This document shows, in pieces, positions 8,919 through 31,872 of a stretch of DNA of 31,872 nucleotides. The stretch lies in the IMG/VR virus record IMGVR_UViG_3300045988_180666. One strand, written 5' to 3'. Within the stretch, counting starts at the first letter, position 1, and every line of letters starts with the position of its first letter. This stretch comes from a virus. Taxonomy: Duplodnaviria > Heunggongvirae > Uroviricota > Caudoviricetes. The position numbers and the translations under genes were made by a program. Below the pieces are notes generated by a model. The model was not told the origin of the DNA. It ran no database searches and was given only the letters and a program-made list of their open reading frames with translations.

Positions 8919-9762
8919 AAGCTATATTGTGGCTAGCCTTGTAGGCGGTGGAATCTCTATATTTGGCGAAGTCATCGATGTTATCGTCTATGAGGGAGAG
9001 TAGGCTGAAGAAGAGTTTGTCTCTCGCCCTGAGGTCGATGGAATCGCCGTTTTTTGTGATATGGCACCCGATGAAATCGTAGATGCGCATGATGGCGACC
9101 CGATGGGAGGTGGTCGGGAACTGAGCCTTGCGCTCCTCTTCGAGCAACTGGTCTATCTGTGCATCGGAGAGCTCTCGGCGCAGGAAGGTCTCGGCTTGGT
9201 CTATCTCGCCCTTGTGCGCCACGAGGTCATCGAAGGTAAGCTTGCCGGGGATGCCGCAGAACTTGTTGAGGATGTATGGCGACCAAATGAAGGAGCGGAT
9301 GGTGTTGAAGGCTTGCAAGCTGTCAGCCCAGCCCTCGACCTGTCGCAATCGGTTGATGACGTTGTGCTGGGCGTAGTCTCGCCTGTAGGCAAGCTCGTGC
9401 TCCATGGCATCGACACGAGCCTGTGAGGCTGGGGCGATGTTGTCGTTGGAGACCACCCCGAAGCCGTTGTCGGTCATGATGATGTCGTGGGAGTGGAGAC
9501 TATCGAGGAAGGTGGCCAGTATGACATAGTCTCTGGCGTAGCGCTGCAGGGGCGAGTCTTCGGTCGAGACCGCTTGCTCGGCATCTGCGCCCACGACGGT
9601 GGCGATAAGATCGTCAAAATGGTTCTCGAAGGATGGCTGCATCTTGGTGAAGACATCCTCGGAGGCTGCCGCCACGAATGGCAGCAGCTGCTCGAACTGG
9701 TTTATATCAATCTGTATCATCTTGTTGCTTTGATTTTTGGTTGTTGGAAACTTGCTTGGCAT
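8875..9762 (-). CDS. Hypothetical phage protein (start may be the ATG at about 9720, MIQIDINQF...)
   Basis: ORF track, 295 aa. Track start appears to be an upstream alternative start; first in-frame ATG about 42 nt downstream. Confidence 0.55.
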   Translation of the reverse strand: MPSKFPTTKNQSNKMIQIDINQFEQLLPFVAAASEDVFTKMQPSFENHFDDLIATVVGADAEQAVSTEDSPLQRYARDYVILATFLDSLHSHDIIMTDNGFGVVSNDNIAPASQARVDAMEHELAYRRDYAQHNVINRLRQVEGWADSLQAFNTIRSFIWSPYILNKFCGIPGKLTFDDLVAHKGEIDQAETFLRRELSDAQIDQLLEEERKAQFPTTSHRVAIMRIYDFIGCHITKNGDSIDLRARDKLFFSLLSLIDDNIDDFAKYRDSTAYKASHNIAYENNADDTTFFFAG

Positions 9763-11113
9763 CCTTGTTCTCGTCGAGGGTGGTGAGCATGATGAGCGGC
9801 ACGTCTGGATAGACCTTCTGCTCCCAGTGGTTGAAGTAGATGACCACCCAGTGAACGGTCTCCATGAGGTCGTGGAACGCCTTCTCTATCGACTGCTTGA
9901 GGGTGAAGAGCTCTCGCTTGTCTGAGCCAGAGTTGTTGGTTTGGCTCTTGCCCGGTGTGGCGCCCACGAGATTAGGGTGGATGTTGTCGGCATAACACTG
10001 CATGTTGTTGCTCTCGGCGATGTCGTCGCTGTAGTCACCGCCATCCTTTGAGGTGTCGATGCGCGTGATGCGCACCATCTTTACCTCTTTGCCATCAGGT
10101 GTGGTGTAATAGCCCGCTATCCAGAGCTTGCCGCTATTCTCGATGCCTGAGATGAAGGAGCGGATTTTTTCTTTCTCCTTCAGCTTGCGCTCCTTTTGCT
10201 TTGCCTTGTCGGTGATGTGCTCCTCTTGGAAGATGCCACGCCAATAGTCGTTGTGTATCTCTACGAGGTAAGGGATGGCAGCGTGGTTTTTGAGCTTTGC
10301 CATCTTGCCGATGGCGATGAGCCGGGAGATGTCGTACCACTTGTCTCGGAAGATGGCGCTGTAGTAGGGCACGGGGTAGTATTGACTGCCAGGAGTAGGG
10401 AAGCGAGTCACGATGGCGAAGACTCTGTCTTTGCACTTTGCTCCACCCGTCTGTCTGGTCAGGGTCTGTCCGCTTTGACCGTCGAGCCCCATGCGCTGCT
10501 GTAGGTCGCCCAGTGGGTCTAGCTCGTCGAGGAGTGGCAGCACCTCGATGTTGTCGGGTTTGACGGCATTGCGCCAGTTGGTATAGAGCACGTATTCGGA
10601 GCGACCGTTTTTGCTCTGGGTGAACCGACAGTAGCACGCCTCTTTGTGCCGGATGCCCACGATGCGATCGCCCTTTTTGTTGAGGATGATGGCTGAGACA
10701 CAAAAGAAGAAGTACTTCATGTCTGTGATTTGCTCGAGGAAGAAGCGCGAGAGGTTGTTGTGCATCTTGAAGAGGTTGACCTCTTTGTCTTGTGTCGGAA
10801 GCTTTGTCTTGATGTCGTTGTACTGGAAGCCCATGCCGTAGCAGGTGAGCACGTTGAAGAGCTTGTTTTGCGCCATCACGCTGCTCTCGCCGATGTTTTT
10901 GATGAGCTGGTAGGGCAGCTTGTTGTCTGCCCCGAAGGGGATGTAGGTGTATCTTTGCTTGTCCACCTCTACGGAGACGGTGGGTGTGGTACCATCATCA
11001 TCGAAGATGGATGAGGACTCGACGAAGCCGCTGGTGGGCGACGAGGTCTGGTAATCGAGCACCTCGCCCATGGTGGCGTATGTGATGTCTATGTTATTGC
11101 TTTTGTCTGCCAT
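9707..11113 (-). CDS. Hypothetical large virion protein (about 468 aa); portal is a possibility by size only
   Basis: Track ORF 9707..11284. Its first 57 codons (Pro/His/Arg-rich) overlap the upstream 86-aa gene and look non-coding; ATG at 11113 (MADKSNNIDITY...) taken as start. Portal suggestion is size-based only. Confidence 0.55.
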   Translation of the reverse strand: MADKSNNIDITYATMGEVLDYQTSSPTSGFVESSSIFDDDGTTPTVSVEVDKQRYTYIPFGADNKLPYQLIKNIGESSVMAQNKLFNVLTCYGMGFQYNDIKTKLPTQDKEVNLFKMHNNLSRFFLEQITDMKYFFFCVSAIILNKKGDRIVGIRHKEACYCRFTQSKNGRSEYVLYTNWRNAVKPDNIEVLPLLDELDPLGDLQQRMGLDGQSGQTLTRQTGGAKCKDRVFAIVTRFPTPGSQYYPVPYYSAIFRDKWYDISRLIAIGKMAKLKNHAAIPYLVEIHNDYWRGIFQEEHITDKAKQKERKLKEKEKIRSFISGIENSGKLWIAGYYTTPDGKEVKMVRITRIDTSKDGGDYSDDIAESNNMQCYADNIHPNLVGATPGKSQTNNSGSDKRELFTLKQSIEKAFHDLMETVHWVVIYFNHWEQKVYPDVPLIMLTTLDENKDAKQVSNNQKSKQQDDTD

Positions 11114-11118
11114 AATCT

Positions 11119-11379
11119 TTATAAGTATATTGAATGGTCGTTGTATCTGAAGATGAAAATGTCTCTCACCTTGCGTATCTGGTGGTTGACTGGGTTGTAG
11201 AGGGTGTGGGTGCCGTTTTGCCAGGATGAGGACTTGACGAGCCATCCCCTGTACTGGATGATGGAACCATCGCCGCCCTTCCAACAGTCGATGTCAACGG
11301 GCGAGCGGTCGATGCGCGAGATGTCGAGGGCACGGCGCAGCTCGTTGATGTGTATTGCCTTGGGTGTCTTGTCTGCCAT
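11119..11379 (-). CDS. Hypothetical small phage protein
   Basis: ORF track, 86 aa. ATG at 11379; stop 5 nt before next gene. Confidence 0.5.
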   Translation of the reverse strand: MADKTPKAIHINELRRALDISRIDRSPVDIDCWKGGDGSIIQYRGWLVKSSSWQNGTHTLYNPVNHQIRKVRDIFIFRYNDHSIYL

Positions 11380-29902: not shown

Positions 29903-30280
29903 ATGTTTAATGGTCAGATAATCAGAAAGTTAATGTCGGATGCTGGCTTAACTAAAAAAGAGTTTGAAAGACGTATGTTCGGTAGTAAATCGACCGACCT
30001 CAACCATTTGGAAAAAGCGAAGAATCTTCGCAGTGACACTCTCGAACGTCTGCGTGATGTGTTGAAGTGCTCTATGGATGACTTCTTTACAGCACCCTCA
30101 TGGGCTGAGAACGGAAAGGGGACAGTCGTAGGCTCTAACAATGTGCTGTCAACAGTAGCCATCGGCAACGAAGTGATGGAAGCCCAATATCTCAAGGAGT
30201 TGCTCTTGGAGAAGGACAAACGCATCAGCACTTTGGAAAATTATATCAAGCTTCTGGAGACTAACTTAAATAAGGACTAA
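29903..30280 (+). CDS. XRE-family helix-turn-helix transcriptional repressor (phage CI-like), with C-terminal coiled-coil
   Basis: 125 aa. N-terminal IRKLMSDAGLTKKEFERRMFGSKSTDLNHLEKAKNLRSDTLERLRDVLKCSMDDFF is a typical HTH_XRE. No S24 peptidase domain. Only phage gene on plus strand. Confidence 0.65.
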   Translation: MFNGQIIRKLMSDAGLTKKEFERRMFGSKSTDLNHLEKAKNLRSDTLERLRDVLKCSMDDFFTAPSWAENGKGTVVGSNNVLSTVAIGNEVMEAQYLKELLLEKDKRISTLENYIKLLETNLNKD

Positions 30281-30309
30281 TACGAAACATAATTCGTAAG
30301 ATGAATCCT

Positions 30310-30325
30310 TATATATAATAAGGTG
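30310..30325 (+). repeat. Copy b of 16 nt AT-rich repeat TATATATAATAAGGTG
   Basis: Exact 16-mer, 30 nt downstream of repressor stop, near presumed prophage right boundary. Confidence 0.7.
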
Positions 30326-30486
30326 TATAAAATATATCGTATAATCTCAGCAGTGATATCCAACTCGTTAGTCCTGCCGCCGCAACTAGTTTCGGGTAAG
30401 AAGTTGGTAAACAACATCTTATCCGATTTCTGTTTTTCTATTGGAACTATATCAGAACGAAATACTTTCCATTCCACATTCCTTTG

Positions 30487-30527
30487 ATATTCAATATTTA
30501 ACACTTATTATTTGCGTATATTGAATA
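30487..30527. promoter_or_regulatory. Inverted repeat ATATTCAATAT / ATATTGAATA upstream of TetR gene (candidate operator)
   Basis: Arms at 30488-30497 and 30518-30527. A related palindrome ATTCAA-AGTATA-TTGAAT lies at 31229-31246 upstream of fabG, sharing the 11-mer GTATATTGAAT. Confidence 0.4.
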
Positions 30528-30542
30528 AAAGTGCTACTTTTG
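30511..30542 (+). promoter_or_regulatory. Bacteroidetes-type promoter of TetR gene (-33 TTTG, -7 TACTTTTG) overlapping an inverted repeat
   Basis: TTTG at 30511-30514 and TACTTTTG at 30535-30542, 20 nt apart. Inverted repeat TTGCACA (30540-30546) / TGTGCAA (30559-30565) overlaps the predicted start site. Confidence 0.5.
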
Positions 30543-30591
30543 CACATTGATAATTTATTGTGCAACCAAATCTCGATGGAGGTACTTCGTT

Positions 30592-31188
30592 ATGTCAATA
30601 TCAAAAACTAGACAGAAATTAGTGGATGTCGCTCGACAACTCTTTGCAAAGAACGGAATCGCCAATACAACGATGAATGACATCGCTGTGGCTTCTGGTA
30701 AGGGACGTCGCACGCTTTATACCTATTTTAGTCGTAAGGAGGACGTCTATTACGCAGTGATAGAGTCGGAATTGGAGCGCCTTTCTGACAAACTTGACGA
30801 AGTGGCCGCCAGTAAGATTCGACCTCAAGACAAAATCATCGAATTGATTTATACCCACTTGAGCATGATCAAGGAGACTGTTGTCAGAAATGGAAATCTG
30901 AGAGCTGAGTTCTTCCGCAATATTTGGATGGTGGAAAAGGCTCGCAAGAATTTCGATGAAGACGAGATAGAACTTCTCAGGAAGGTTTATTCCGAGGGCA
31001 AGGCGGACGGCGAGTTTGACATCGATAATGTAGATTTGGTGGCTGACATCACACACTATTGCATCAAAGGTCTCGAAGTTCCGTTTATCTATGGGCGATT
31101 GGGACATGGCTTGAACGTGGAGTCGAGCAAACCGCTGGTTGCCAAGGTTGTCTATGGTGCTTTAGGAAAGTCGGGAATGAAGTTGTAA
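30592..31188 (+). CDS. TetR/AcrR-family transcriptional regulator (host-type)
   Basis: Track ORF starts at 30547; ATG at 30592 (MSISKTRQKLVDVARQLFAKNGIANTTMNDIAVASGKGRRTLYTYF) gives the canonical TetR N-terminal HTH. Bacteroidetes-type promoter upstream. Confidence 0.8.
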   Translation: MSISKTRQKLVDVARQLFAKNGIANTTMNDIAVASGKGRRTLYTYFSRKEDVYYAVIESELERLSDKLDEVAASKIRPQDKIIELIYTHLSMIKETVVRNGNLRAEFFRNIWMVEKARKNFDEDEIELLRKVYSEGKADGEFDIDNVDLVADITHYCIKGLEVPFIYGRLGHGLNVESSKPLVAKVVYGALGKSGMKL

Positions 31189-31331
31189 GAGATTGCTTGC
31201 TAGAATAGCGAAATGCTCTTTTTCTGTTATTCAAAGTATATTGAATGATGGACTAAACTTTCTTGCAAATTCTCAGCAAATCACAAATTGAATAATATAA
31301 AGTGTTAAATATCAAATAAATAAAAAGAAAA

Positions 31332-31872
31332 TGGGATTATTAACAGGTAAGACAGCCCTTATTACAGGTGCTGCACGCGGCATCGGTAAAGCTGTCGCAA
31401 TGAAATTCGCATCAGAAGGTGCTAACATCGCATTCACAGACCTAGTTCTCAATGACGACATGGCTGCTGGTTTGGAAGCTACTCGTAAGGAAATCGAGGC
31501 TCTTGGCGTAACATGCCGTGCTTATGCTGGTAACGCTGCTGATTTCGCGGAGACAGACAAGACTGTTAAGCAGATTCATGCTGACTTCGGTTCTATCGAT
31601 ATTTTGGTTAACAACGCTGGTATCACTAAGGATGGTTTGATGCTCCGTATGAGCGAGGCTCAGTGGGATGCTGTGTTGAACGTTAACTTGAAGTCTGCTT
31701 TCAACTTCATCCACGCTTGTTCTCCTATCATGCTCCGTCAGCGCAGCGGTTCTATCATCAACATGGCTTCTGTAGTAGGTGTTCATGGTAACGCAGGTCA
31801 GTGCAACTATGCAGCTTCTAAGGCTGGTATGATTGCTTTGGCTAAGTCTATCGCTCAGGAGTTGGGTCCTAA
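31332..31872 (+). CDS. fabG: 3-oxoacyl-ACP reductase-like short-chain dehydrogenase, N-terminal 180 codons (gene continues past window end)
   Basis: Hand translation MGLLTGKTALITGAARGIGKAVAMKFASEGANIAF...NNAGITKDG...YAASKAG shows Rossmann TGxxxGIG, NNAG and YxxxK motifs of classical SDR/FabG. Not in ORF track (no stop in-window). Confidence 0.8.

What the first reader, a model, noticed from the sequence alone, without database searches (positions are those of the whole stretch)
30487..31246. Related palindromes upstream of both the TetR-family gene and fabG suggest the regulator controls itself and fabG
Upstream of the TetR gene: ATATTCAATAT (30488-30497) / ATATTGAATA (30518-30527) and TTGCACA / TGTGCAA (30540-30565) overlapping the -7 element. 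Upstream of fabG: ATTCAA-AGTATA-TTGAAT (31229-31246). The two regions share the 11-mer GTATATTGAAT. TetR-family regulators typically bind palindromic operators and often regulate adjacent lipid-metabolism genes.
Basis: partly seen in the sequence, partly recalled or inferred. Interest (0 to 1): 0.4.

Follow-up and report, generated by a model that had tools for sequence, protein, structure and literature searches.

The report
Conserved TetR operator on tetR-fabG promoter

Summary
They are not equivalent. The ATTCAAT/ATTGAAT palindromes and the shared 11-mer occur only in this strain and its closest relatives. The fabG-proximal palindrome lies in a roughly 110-nt lineage-specific insert, and a genome with a 99%-identical TetR lacks it. 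On its own that palindrome is no better than chance.

The palindrome TTGCACA-N12-TGTGCAA (30540-30565) is different. Its left arm overlaps a Bacteroidetes-type -7 box (TACTTTTG). An exact copy lies upstream of tetR in 75 of 80 Prevotellaceae loci, and the other five carry 1-nt variants. The arms are invariant while the spacer varies. Recognisable versions occur in Phocaeicola, Bacteroides and Parabacteroides.

The tetR-fabG spacer is usually 12-63 nt and has no promoter, so fabG is most likely controlled by co-transcription rather than by a site of its own.

The same core (TGCACA-N13-TGTGCA) lies upstream of acpP-fabF in four genera. In 1.05 Mb of one Prevotella genome it occurs three times, at tetR-fabG, at etfBA-acyl-CoA dehydrogenase and at a fatty-acid-CoA-ligase-like gene.

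This looks like an uncharacterised TetR-family fatty-acid regulator.

The parts
30511..30514 (+). -33 element TTTG of the tetR promoter (Bacteroidetes type)
   Evidence: It lies 20 nt upstream of the -7 box. The T-T-G is nearly invariant in 69 distinct orthologous upstream sequences.
30535..30542 (+). -7 element TACTTTTG (consensus TAnnTTTG)
   Evidence: TA and TTTG are invariant in 69 of 69 distinct sequences. The inferred transcription start is near 30547. That position is inferred from the published Bacteroides promoter consensus, recalled from memory, and was not measured.
30540..30546 (.). Left half-site TTGCACA of the candidate TetR operator, overlapping the -7 element
   Evidence: Invariant or 1-nt variant in all 80 loci.
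30559..30565 (.). Right half-site TGTGCAA, inferred to lie at about +13 to +19 of the transcript
   Evidence: TGTGCA is essentially invariant in 69 distinct sequences, while the 11-13 nt between the arms is not conserved. It is the only such palindrome in the window.
30592..31188 (+). tetR, a 198-aa TetR/AcrR-family regulator
   Evidence: Pfam TetR_N scores 46.9 bits against a cut-off of 24. It is 88-100% identical across Prevotellaceae. The predicted nine-helix fold has pLDDT 88.8.
31189..31330 (+). tetR-fabG spacer of 142 nt, expanded in this lineage; no consensus promoter and no terminator found
   Evidence: The median of 61 distinct orthologous spacers is 55 nt, and 44 of 61 are 63 nt or shorter. 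Only L001 shares this sequence. No terminator-like site was found in 30200-31400. No TAnnTTTG is present.
31331..31872 (+). fabG (3-oxoacyl-ACP reductase), running off the end of the window
   Evidence: Pfam adh_short 1e-48. The full-length L001 orthologue, 99.4% identical over the 180 aa in the window, scores 321.5 bits against the TIGR01830 cut-off of 297.75.
30488..30527 (.). Lineage-specific 10-nt inverted repeat TATTCAATAT / ATATTGAATA flanking the -33 element; not judged part of the conserved operator
   Evidence: It is present only in the window, L001 and L002.
31229..31246 (.). Lineage-specific palindrome ATTCAA-AGTATA-TTGAAT, containing the second copy of the 11-mer GTATATTGAAT
   Evidence: It is not beyond chance on its own and is absent from every orthologous spacer except L001.
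31300..31312 (-). Inverted copy of ATATTTAACACTT; the direct copy is at 30494-30506
   Evidence: (I1).

Best explanation
The window carries a tetR-fabG operon; relatives show it continues into an RluA-type pseudouridine synthase gene. Its single Bacteroidetes-type promoter (-33 TTTG at 30511-14, -7 TACTTTTG at 30535-42) is overlapped by a palindromic operator, TTGCACA-N12-TGTGCAA (30540-30565).

The most likely mechanism is that the TetR protein encoded just downstream binds this operator. The site covers the -7 element and the transcription start, so binding would repress the regulator's own transcription and, by co-transcription, that of fabG. The two 7-bp half-sites are 18-20 bp apart centre to centre. 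That is too far for one canonical TetR dimer, so binding by two dimers, as in QacR, is the favoured geometry. This step is inferred only.

The same core palindrome occurs upstream of acpP-fabF, upstream of etfB-etfA-acyl-CoA dehydrogenase, and on the promoter of a long-chain-fatty-acid-CoA-ligase-like gene in other Bacteroidales. The protein is therefore probably a regulator of a fatty-acid metabolism regulon and not only a local repressor. A fatty-acyl thioester (acyl-CoA or acyl-ACP) is the most plausible ligand. The ligand and the sign of its effect are not shown.

The ATTCAAT/ATTGAAT palindromes and the shared 11-mer are recent, lineage-specific sequence in and near the promoter spacer and in an expanded tetR-fabG spacer. 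They are not the operator.

What is shown: sequence conservation, position and co-occurrence. What is inferred: which protein binds, repression, co-transcription, stoichiometry and ligand.
For: (1) An exact TTGCACA-N11..13-TGTGCA lies 40-101 nt before the tetR ATG in 75 of 80 Prevotellaceae loci, once per locus, and nowhere else within +-3 kb. The other five loci carry 1-nt variants.

(2) In 69 distinct sequences both arms are invariant and the spacer is not. The left arm is fused to an invariant TAnnTTTG, with TTTG 20 nt upstream.

(3) The palindrome follows tetR, not fabG.
- It is present in the 9 loci where no fabG was detected downstream.
- It is present upstream of 45%- and 34%-identical TetR homologues that have no fabG (L083, L169).
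- Of 15 metagenome matches in which the palindrome is fused to a -7 box, 9 sit directly upstream of a tetR homologue.

(4) The helix-turn-helix (NTTMNDIA...GKGRRTLYTYF) is the most conserved part of the family down to 30% identity.

(5) tetR-fabG synteny holds in 71 of 80 loci, in Bacteroides finegoldii (annotated TetR-fabG-pseudouridine synthase) and in Parabacteroides distasonis (annotated TetR-KAS III-fabG-RluA). 44 of 61 distinct spacers are 63 nt or shorter, and only the three longest (346-599 nt) contain a consensus promoter. No terminator was found in the window's spacer.

(6) tetR upstream regions of Prevotella oral taxon 299, Phocaeicola, Bacteroides and Parabacteroides all keep TGTGCAA, with a left arm TTGCACA, TTGCTCA or GCGCACA at N11-13.

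(7) [A/G]TGCACA-N13-TGTGCA[A/G] lies 110-140 nt before acpP in those four genera and in metagenome contigs. In 635 kb of loci that were not selected by the pattern, the core occurs only at tetR and acpP.

(8) 1,048,000 nt of Prevotella oral taxon 299 hold 3 perfect-core sites against 0.2 expected. All three are intergenic although 87% of the sequence lies in ORFs. They are at etfB-etfA-acyl-CoA dehydrogenase, at a fatty-acid-CoA-ligase-like gene (fused to the -7 box TATCTTTG) and at tetR. The etfB site is kept in Parabacteroides as ATGCTCA-N13-TGTGCAA.

(9) The best fold matches include the TetR-type fatty-acid regulators 6azh, 3whb (B. subtilis FadR) and 5gpa, and also QacR.
Against: - No binding, transcript or ligand data exist for this protein. 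Nothing was found in the searchable literature, and that library is incomplete.
- The half-site spacing varies: N11-13 at most sites and N2 in one 40%-identical homologue (L082). It differs between tetR (N11) and acpP (N13) within one genome, which is awkward for a rigid binder.
- The left arm largely coincides with the common promoter string TTTGCA, so only its last two bases are independent evidence.
- In Hoylesella shahii and H. loescheii, fabG has its own consensus promoter with no operator. fabG is therefore not tied to the operator everywhere.
- One 47%-identical homologue that keeps tetR-fabG-rluA synteny (L081) and several at 37-45% lack the motif.
- At acpP and etfB the site lies upstream of the -33 element, which is not a classical repressor position. 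In Bacteroides and Parabacteroides the acpP site also abuts the divergent purN start.
- The regulon rests on 59% of one replicon plus spot checks. The window's own species could not be scanned.
- The metagenome pattern scan yielded no additional regulon members.
Confidence: 0.7

Rival explanations
1. The ATTCAAT/ATTGAAT-type palindromes, including the shared 11-mer GTATATTGAAT, are the TetR operators. One set lies at the tetR promoter and one upstream of fabG, giving parallel control from two sites.
For: Within this genome the two non-coding stretches share more than chance allows: an 11-mer (a word that long in 98 of 2000 shuffles) and an inverted 13-mer (5 of 2000). A 10-nt inverted repeat appeared in 21 of 2000 shuffles. 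The 10-mer TATATTGAAT occurs only 4 times in 436 kb of related loci, always in tetR or fabG non-coding DNA of L001, L002 and L008.
Against: The motifs are absent from orthologous loci. The inverted repeat is found in only 3 of 71 distinct upstream regions. The fabG palindrome is found only in L001, and L002 with a 99%-identical TetR has a 31-nt spacer without it. The TetR helix-turn-helix is nearly invariant across the family while these motifs come and go. The fabG palindrome is not significant by itself. ATATTGAATA coincides with a promoter-spacer pattern that the tRNA-Met promoter also shows.
Confidence: 0.06
2. The TTGCACA/TGTGCAA palindrome is a real regulatory site but is bound by a different protein. 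tetR-fabG, acpP-fabF, etfBA and the ligase gene would then be co-targets of that factor, and the TetR protein would recognise something else.
For: Nothing here shows which protein binds. The site also occurs upstream of the -33 element at acpP and etfB, which is unusual for a TetR repressor. The 18-20 bp centre-to-centre spacing is atypical for one TetR dimer.
Against: The palindrome accompanies tetR homologues in unrelated gene contexts (L083, L169, L082) and sits on the tetR promoter in about 80 species. Autoregulation through an operator on the regulator's own promoter is the norm for this family (established knowledge). The motif degrades in step with TetR divergence.
Confidence: 0.12
3. 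The TetR protein is only a local autoregulator of tetR-fabG. The similar palindromes at acpP, etfB and the ligase gene are unrelated or serve another function, for example the divergent purN promoter in Bacteroides.
For: Spacing differs (N13 against N11-12). The first base of the left arm differs (A or G instead of T). The position relative to the promoter differs. In Bacteroides and Parabacteroides the acpP site lies 13 nt from the purN start codon.
Against: Chance expectation is 0.2 perfect-core sites per 1.05 Mb. All sites found are intergenic and all precede fatty-acid genes. The acpP site is kept in four genera, including Prevotella oral taxon 299, where ORF listing shows no divergent ORF next to the site, so no adjacent purN. 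The etfB site is kept between Prevotella and Parabacteroides. The ligase-gene site has the same -7-fused architecture as tetR.
Confidence: 0.2
4. The palindrome acts as an RNA hairpin in the tetR leader, as an attenuator or stability element, rather than as a DNA operator.
For: If transcribed, 30536-30595 folds with the two arms paired at -14.4 kcal/mol, z = -2.5.
Against: The left arm overlaps the invariant -7 box and so should lie upstream of the transcription start. The arms are invariant in 69 sequences with no compensatory changes, which indicates sequence-specific recognition rather than pairing. There is no Rfam match. At acpP and etfB the site lies upstream of the promoter.
Confidence: 0.03

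Closest known systems
FadR (YsiA) of Bacillus subtilis and other TetR-type FadR proteins (B. halodurans, Thermus thermophilus)
   Same: It is a TetR-family protein of about 195 aa. These are among the best fold matches (3whb, 5gpa, 6azh). The candidate regulon includes a fatty-acid-CoA ligase and etfB-etfA with an acyl-CoA dehydrogenase, which mirrors the B. subtilis lcfA-fadR-fadB-etfB-etfA operon (from memory). It has a palindromic operator on its own promoter.
   Different: It is not an orthologue: NCBIfam FadR scores 38 bits against a cut-off of 200, and identity to the fold matches is 16-19%. The regulator gene is linked to biosynthetic genes (fabG, acpP-fabF, and KAS III in Parabacteroides) in organisms that, to my knowledge, are not known for beta-oxidation. 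The operator sequence and spacing differ. The ligand is unknown.
FabR (E. coli) and DesT (Pseudomonas aeruginosa)
   Same: These are TetR-family regulators of type II fatty-acid synthesis genes that bind palindromes at fab promoters. Acyl thioesters modulate their DNA binding (established knowledge).
   Different: They are gammaproteobacterial, control unsaturated fatty-acid genes (fabA/fabB, desCB), and have compact operators (from memory). Neither appeared among the NCBIfam matches at E <= 1e-5.
FasR (mycobacteria, Streptomyces)
   Same: It is a TetR-family regulator of fatty-acid synthase genes that binds upstream of the promoter and activates, and it is released by long-chain acyl-CoA (PMC5541348 reviews this field; details from memory). 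It is a possible analogue for the upstream-positioned acpP and etfB sites.
   Different: NCBIfam FasR scores 33.5 bits against a cut-off of 330. At its own promoter the protein here occupies a repressor position.
QacR (Staphylococcus aureus)
   Same: It is the closest characterised sequence relative in the PDB, at E about 1e-10 over residues 7-161, with TM-score 0.70-0.75. QacR binds a 28-bp inverted repeat overlapping the transcription start as a pair of dimers (1jt0, listed as a cooperative QacR-DNA complex). The 26-27-bp site here has a similar footprint and position.
   Different: QacR is a multidrug sensor controlling an efflux pump. Here only the outer 7 bp of each side are conserved and the centre is free. 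Stoichiometry was not tested.
PsrA (Pseudomonas)
   Same: It is a TetR-family, fatty-acid-responsive regulator involved in fatty-acid metabolism (PMC13104628 abstract). Its control of beta-oxidation and etf genes is recalled from memory.
   Different: It has a different operator and is linked to rpoS and virulence. No sequence relationship closer than the family level was seen.

Membership tests
TetR/AcrR family transcriptional regulators | N-terminal TetR-type helix-turn-helix domain | tested here: met
   Pfam PF00440 at residues 10-54, 46.9 bits against a cut-off of 24.
TetR/AcrR family transcriptional regulators | All-helical two-domain fold of about nine helices | tested here: met
   The AlphaFold2 model has pLDDT 88.8 and nine helices. 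All top Foldseek PDB matches are TetR-family proteins.
TetR/AcrR family transcriptional regulators | Palindromic operator at the regulator's own or an adjacent promoter | tested here: met
   A conserved inverted repeat overlaps the -7 box in about 80 species. This is met by comparative sequence only.
TetR/AcrR family transcriptional regulators | Sequence-specific DNA binding that is modulated by a small-molecule ligand | not testable with these tools
   Requires EMSA or DAP-seq and ligand assays.
FadR (YsiA-type, TetR family; NCBIfam NF053878) | Score above the curated equivalog cut-off | tested here: not met
   38.3 bits against a cut-off of 200.
FadR (YsiA-type, TetR family; NCBIfam NF053878) | Regulon of fatty-acid activation and oxidation genes (acyl-CoA ligase, etfBA, acyl-CoA dehydrogenase) | tested here: inconclusive
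   Motif sites precede such genes in Prevotella oral taxon 299, and etfB in Parabacteroides. The gene names are family-level only, because all scores fall below the curated cut-offs. Regulation itself was not measured.
FadR (YsiA-type, TetR family; NCBIfam NF053878) | Long-chain acyl-CoA as the ligand that releases DNA | not testable with these tools
   No ligand assay is available here.
FasR (NCBIfam NF053731) | Score above the curated cut-off | tested here: not met
   33.5 bits against a cut-off of 330.
QacR-type binding (pair of dimers on a long inverted repeat) | Two dimers per operator of about 28 bp overlapping the transcription start | not testable with these tools
   Only the operator length (26-27 bp) and position fit. 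Stoichiometry is unknown.
Bacteroidetes primary-sigma promoter | -33 TTTG and -7 TAnnTTTG separated by about 19-21 nt | tested here: met
   TTTG at 30511-14, 20 nt, then TACTTTTG at 30535-42. The pattern is invariant in 69 orthologous sequences. The consensus itself is taken from memory of published Bacteroides promoter studies.
FabG, 3-oxoacyl-ACP reductase (TIGR01830) | Score above the equivalog cut-off | tested here: met
   The full-length L001 orthologue scores 321.5 bits against 297.75. It is 99.4% identical to the 180 aa present in the window.

The most novel reading that the evidence does not exclude
This TetR protein is the so far unrecognised master regulator of fatty-acid metabolism in Bacteroidales. 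It would act in two modes from one motif. It would repress promoters whose -7 box it overlaps (its own tetR-fabG operon and an acyl-CoA/ACP-ligase gene). It would act from an upstream position, possibly as an activator, at acpP-fabF and etfBA-acyl-CoA dehydrogenase. It would bind widely spaced half-sites as two dimers and would sense an acyl thioester. This would couple synthesis to the use of exogenous fatty acids in gut and oral anaerobes.
Probability: 0.4. Interest if true: 0.7.

Novelty: new member of a known kind. Interest (0 to 1): 0.5.

Why it matters
Transcriptional control of type II fatty-acid synthesis is well described for Proteobacteria (FadR, FabR, DesT), Firmicutes (FapR, FabT) and Actinobacteria (FasR, MabR). 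I found no description for Bacteroidota, in the searchable library or in my own knowledge. These organisms dominate the gut, the rumen and much of the oral cavity.

This analysis gives a specific, testable regulator-operator pair:
- a 198-aa TetR protein that is more than 88% identical across Prevotellaceae;
- a defined operator, TTGCACA-N11..13-TGTGCAA;
- four candidate target operons.

A small set of experiments (EMSA, DAP-seq, deletion followed by RNA-seq) in genetically tractable Bacteroides, Parabacteroides or Segatella could show how these bacteria set membrane-lipid synthesis and respond to host or dietary fatty acids.

For genome annotation the result is also a caution. In AT-rich intergenic DNA, strain-specific palindromes can look like operators, and phylogenetic footprinting separates them from the real site.

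Tried and rejected
1. Sigma-70-style promoter scan. It found only a TTGATA/TATTAT match and is not applicable to Bacteroidetes. I replaced it with the TTTG/TAnnTTTG analysis.

2. Metagenome pattern scan for TTGCACA-N11,12-TGTGCAA. Of 120 matches most were chance hits in unrelated organisms, including a termite mariner-like element. It recovered 9 further tetR promoters but no new targets. It could not have found the acpP-type sites, which have N13 and A or G as the first base.

3. Search with a Bacteroides ACP sequence written from memory, intended to reach Prevotella acpP. It returned only Bacteroides and Phocaeicola variants. Their contigs nevertheless revealed the acpP-upstream palindrome.

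4. Search with the Parabacteroides KAS III from the tetR operon. It has no close homologue in the other accessible genomes, so it gave no further loci.

5. Search with the oral taxon 299 ligase-like protein. All 120 listed hits are 96-99% identical, and every hit that carries a source name is Hoylesella nanceiensis. This gave no phylogenetic depth, so conservation of the ligase-gene site outside that species is untested.

6. MAFFT alignment of the expanded spacers with the prophage end was uninformative. Pairwise local alignment supports only the link between L008 and the prophage end.

7. A background promoter set to test whether the promoter-spacer pattern is generic. It is dominated by one orthologous tRNA-Met promoter, so the conclusion is only suggestive.

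8. RNA explanations: no Rfam match, and the hairpin model was rejected on the lack of covariation.

9. I considered whether the shared 11-mer is a phage att or arm site, because a third copy lies in the prophage (11125). That copy falls inside a long open reading frame that may be coding, and L001, which has no prophage, carries the other two copies. Rejected as an att explanation.
Full report
**Setting.** The window is mostly a prophage-like block of minus-strand genes (1386-28936) plus a Cro/C1-type HTH gene (29903-30280). Three of six large ORFs match PHROG families of unknown function. Two core genes follow on the plus strand. The first is a 198-aa TetR-family gene (ATG 30592, stop 31188). 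The second is fabG, starting at 31331 and running off the end of the window. The closest genome is Prevotella sp. CAG:732 (L001), with 100% TetR identity. L001 has no prophage. It carries an intact tRNA-Met(CAT) gene there, and homology to the window resumes inside the 3' end of that tRNA, at window position 30371-30386.

**Checking the observation.**
- TATTCAATAT (30488-97) and ATATTGAATA (30518-27) form a perfect 10-nt inverted repeat.
- ATTCAAAGTATATTGAAT is at 31229-46.
- GTATATTGAAT is at 30516 and 31236, with a third copy at 11125.

I tested these against 2000 dinucleotide-preserving shuffles.
- The 10-nt repeat is moderately unusual (21 of 2000).
- The fabG palindrome is not unusual (1745 of 2000).
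- A shared word of at least 11 nt is borderline (98 of 2000).
- The two regions also share an inverted 13-mer, ATATTTAACACTT (5 of 2000).

Within this genome the two non-coding stretches are therefore related beyond chance.

**Comparative test.** A scan of species-representative genomes returned 80 Prevotellaceae loci from Segatella, Hoylesella, Hallella and Prevotella, with TetR identity of 88-100%. fabG follows tetR in 71 of the 80 loci.

The tetR-fabG spacer is short in most of them. There are 61 distinct spacers with a median of 55 nt, and 44 of them are 63 nt or shorter. It shows no conserved palindrome. The window's 142-nt spacer is shared only with L001. L002, with a 99%-identical TetR, has a 31-nt spacer. 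The 10-nt inverted repeat upstream of tetR is found only in the window, in L001 and (as 9 nt) in L002, out of 71 distinct upstream regions.

**What is conserved.** An exact TTGCACA-N11..13-TGTGCA lies 40-101 nt before the tetR ATG in 75 of 80 loci. The spacer is 12 nt in 59 sequences, 11 nt in 15 and 13 nt in 2, counting the window with the 75 loci. The remaining five loci have 1-nt variants. It occurs once per locus and nowhere else within +-3 kb.

In 69 distinct sequences the pattern TA-n-T-TTTGCACA ... TGTGCAA is invariant, while the bases between the arms are free. A TTTG lies 20 nt upstream of the TA. This is the Bacteroidetes -33 TTTG / -7 TAnnTTTG promoter (consensus taken from memory of the Bacteroides promoter literature), with the left arm of the palindrome fused to the -7 box. 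The right arm would fall at about +13 to +19. A protein bound there would block RNA polymerase.

Arms that stay invariant with no compensatory changes, together with a left arm that overlaps the -7 box, argue for protein-DNA recognition and against an RNA hairpin.

ATATTGAATA lies in the promoter spacer. The moderately conserved pattern there (T-C-R-A-A-T-A-A-A at -14 to -5 relative to the TA) also appears in the adjacent tRNA-Met promoter. It is more likely a promoter feature than an operator, although that background set is not independent.

**Which protein binds.** No tool here can show binding. The palindrome tracks tetR rather than fabG.
- It is present in the nine loci where no fabG was detected downstream.
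- It is present before a 45%-identical homologue next to tilS (L083).
- It is present before a 34%-identical homologue next to a dihydroorotate-dehydrogenase-like gene (L169).
- It is present, with the arms only 2 nt apart, before a 40%-identical homologue followed by a pseudouridine synthase (L082).

Variants persist at 58-60% identity (L204, L205). The motif fades in more distant clades (L081, L207, L209-L214). The helix-turn-helix is the best conserved segment of the family. In a capped metagenome scan, 9 of the 15 matches in which the palindrome is fused to a -7 box lie directly before a tetR homologue.

**Control of fabG.** No copy of the operator lies before fabG in any locus. Only the three longest spacers (346-599 nt) contain a consensus promoter. 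In Hoylesella shahii and H. loescheii that promoter has no operator. In Hallella faecis it carries TATATTTGCACG with a degenerate right arm. No terminator-like site was found between tetR and fabG in the window. Co-transcription is therefore the best-supported route of control, and it is an inference.

The synteny is broad. Annotated records show TetR-fabG-pseudouridine synthase in Bacteroides finegoldii and TetR-KAS III-fabG-RluA in Parabacteroides distasonis.

**A wider regulon.** PLSDB contains chromosomal pieces of Bacteroidales that are mislabelled as plasmids, and this made further loci readable.
- The tetR upstream regions of Prevotella sp. oral taxon 299, Phocaeicola massiliensis, B. 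finegoldii and P. distasonis all keep TGTGCAA, with a left arm TTGCACA, TTGCTCA or GCGCACA at N11-13.
- In the same four genera, and in metagenome contigs, [A/G]TGCACA-N13-TGTGCA[A/G] lies 110-140 nt before acpP-fabF, upstream of the acpP -33 element.
- In 635 kb of loci not selected by the pattern, the core TGCACA-N10..14-TGTGCA occurs only at tetR and acpP.

I then read 1,048,000 nt, 59% of the oral taxon 299 replicon. It holds three perfect-core sites against 0.2 expected. All three are intergenic although 87% of the sequence lies in ORFs.
- One is 80 nt before etfB-etfA-acyl-CoA dehydrogenase.
- One is fused to the -7 box TATCTTTG of a long-chain-fatty-acid-CoA-ligase-like gene.
- One is at tetR.

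The gene names are family-level, because the scores are below the curated cut-offs. The etfB site is kept in P. distasonis as ATGCTCA-N13-TGTGCAA, about 45 nt before the -7 box. Conservation of the ligase-gene site elsewhere could not be tested.

The sites fall into two classes. Some overlap the -7 box and the start (tetR, ligase gene). Others lie upstream of the -33 element (acpP, etfB). The second class leaves open activation or another mode of action.

**Comparison with known systems.** The protein is a TetR/AcrR-family member. It fails the curated thresholds of every named NCBIfam subfamily, including FadR (38 against 200) and FasR (33.5 against 330). The closest PDB sequences are two uncharacterised structural-genomics proteins and QacR. 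The best fold matches include the TetR-type fatty-acid regulators (6azh, 3whb, 5gpa) and QacR, all at similar scores, so this is only a hint.

In function it most resembles the YsiA-type FadR (ligase, etfBA, acyl-CoA dehydrogenase) combined with a FabR- or FasR-like hold on synthesis genes. In operator length and position it resembles QacR. Six literature searches found no description of it, and that library is incomplete.

**The AT-rich repeats.** They remain partly unexplained. TATATTGAAT is rare: 4 copies in 436 kb, all in tetR or fabG non-coding DNA of L001, L002 and L008. The expanded spacers in this clade are heterogeneous. The L008 spacer contains 20 nt identical to the non-coding right end of the window's prophage (30310-30329). 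This suggests that mobile-element scars or local rearrangements built these spacers. A lineage-specific binding site for another factor cannot be excluded.

**Verdict.** The biological conclusion, autoregulation and control of fabG, is probably right, through a different and strongly conserved operator and through co-transcription. The follow-up points to an apparently undescribed fatty-acid regulon in Bacteroidales: a new member of a known kind, of moderate interest and directly testable.

Noticed in passing
window 1386-30386; L001:1001-1074: The window's prophage-like block is inserted into the 3' end of a tRNA-Met(CAT) gene. L001 (Prevotella sp. CAG:732) has the intact tRNA and no prophage. 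Homology resumes at the 16-nt core GTCCTGCCGCCGCAAC (30371-30386), presumably the right attachment site. No second copy of the core and no tRNA lie inside the window, so the left end lies outside it. Three of six large ORFs match PHROG families of unknown function.
   Followed up: partly
window 11125-11135: A third exact copy of the 11-mer GTATATTGAAT lies inside the prophage, within the long minus-strand open reading frame 9707-11284, just upstream of an in-frame ATG at 11116. With up to one mismatch, 0.41 matches are expected in the window and 3 were found. It is probably chance but remains unexplained.
   Followed up: partly
L008:2203-2222 versus window 30310-30329: The 140-nt tetR-fabG spacer of Prevotella sp. 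B2-R-102 contains 20 nt identical to the non-coding right end of the window's prophage, with weaker similarity around it. Expanded tetR-fabG spacers in this clade may contain scars of related mobile elements.
   Followed up: partly
L082:~700-770: In a 40%-identical TetR homologue the two half-sites are 2 nt apart (TTGCACAAATGTGCAA) instead of 11-13 nt. The difference is about one helical turn.
   Followed up: no
L117:2965-3059; L079 and L080 upstream of tetR: Some loci carry a second full operator about 70 nt upstream of the promoter-proximal one (L117), or extra half-sites or imperfect copies (L079, L080).
   Followed up: no
L227:2995-5992 (Parabacteroides distasonis NZ_OY725823.1): Here the tetR operon is annotated as TetR, ketoacyl-ACP synthase III, fabG, RluA. 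This KAS III is a divergent paralogue, about 31% identical to the best non-self hits listed in PLSDB.
   Followed up: partly
L001-L080, 150-450 nt upstream of tetR: In many of the loci a tRNA-Met promoter lies next to tetR. Most promoters found in these loci continue the -7 box with CA (TAnnTTTGCA), so part of the operator's left arm coincides with a common promoter string. Many MAG contigs also end 0.2-2 kb upstream of tetR, consistent with a variable, insertion-prone region at the tRNA.
   Followed up: partly
NC_022111.1; OY7257xx-OY7260xx records in the 'plasmids' collection: Several PLSDB 'plasmid' records are chromosomal. One is a 1.77-Mb Prevotella sp. oral taxon 299 replicon carrying tetR-fabG, acpP-fabF and etfBA. 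Others are dozens of contigs of the B. finegoldii, P. distasonis and P. massiliensis TSDC17.2-1.1 assemblies. They were useful here but are a trap for plasmid studies.
   Followed up: no
L229:2651-2748; L230:2589-2742: In Bacteroides and Parabacteroides the acpP-upstream palindrome lies in the short divergent purN-acpP intergenic region, close to the purN start (13 nt from it in the metagenome contigs L215-L217). It could therefore also affect purN. In Prevotella oral taxon 299 no divergent ORF, and so no purN, lies next to the site.
   Followed up: partly
L063 and L074, between tetR and fabG: In Hoylesella shahii and H. loescheii about 600 nt lie between tetR and fabG. They appear to encode a small protein (not examined further), and fabG has its own consensus promoter without the operator.
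   Followed up: no
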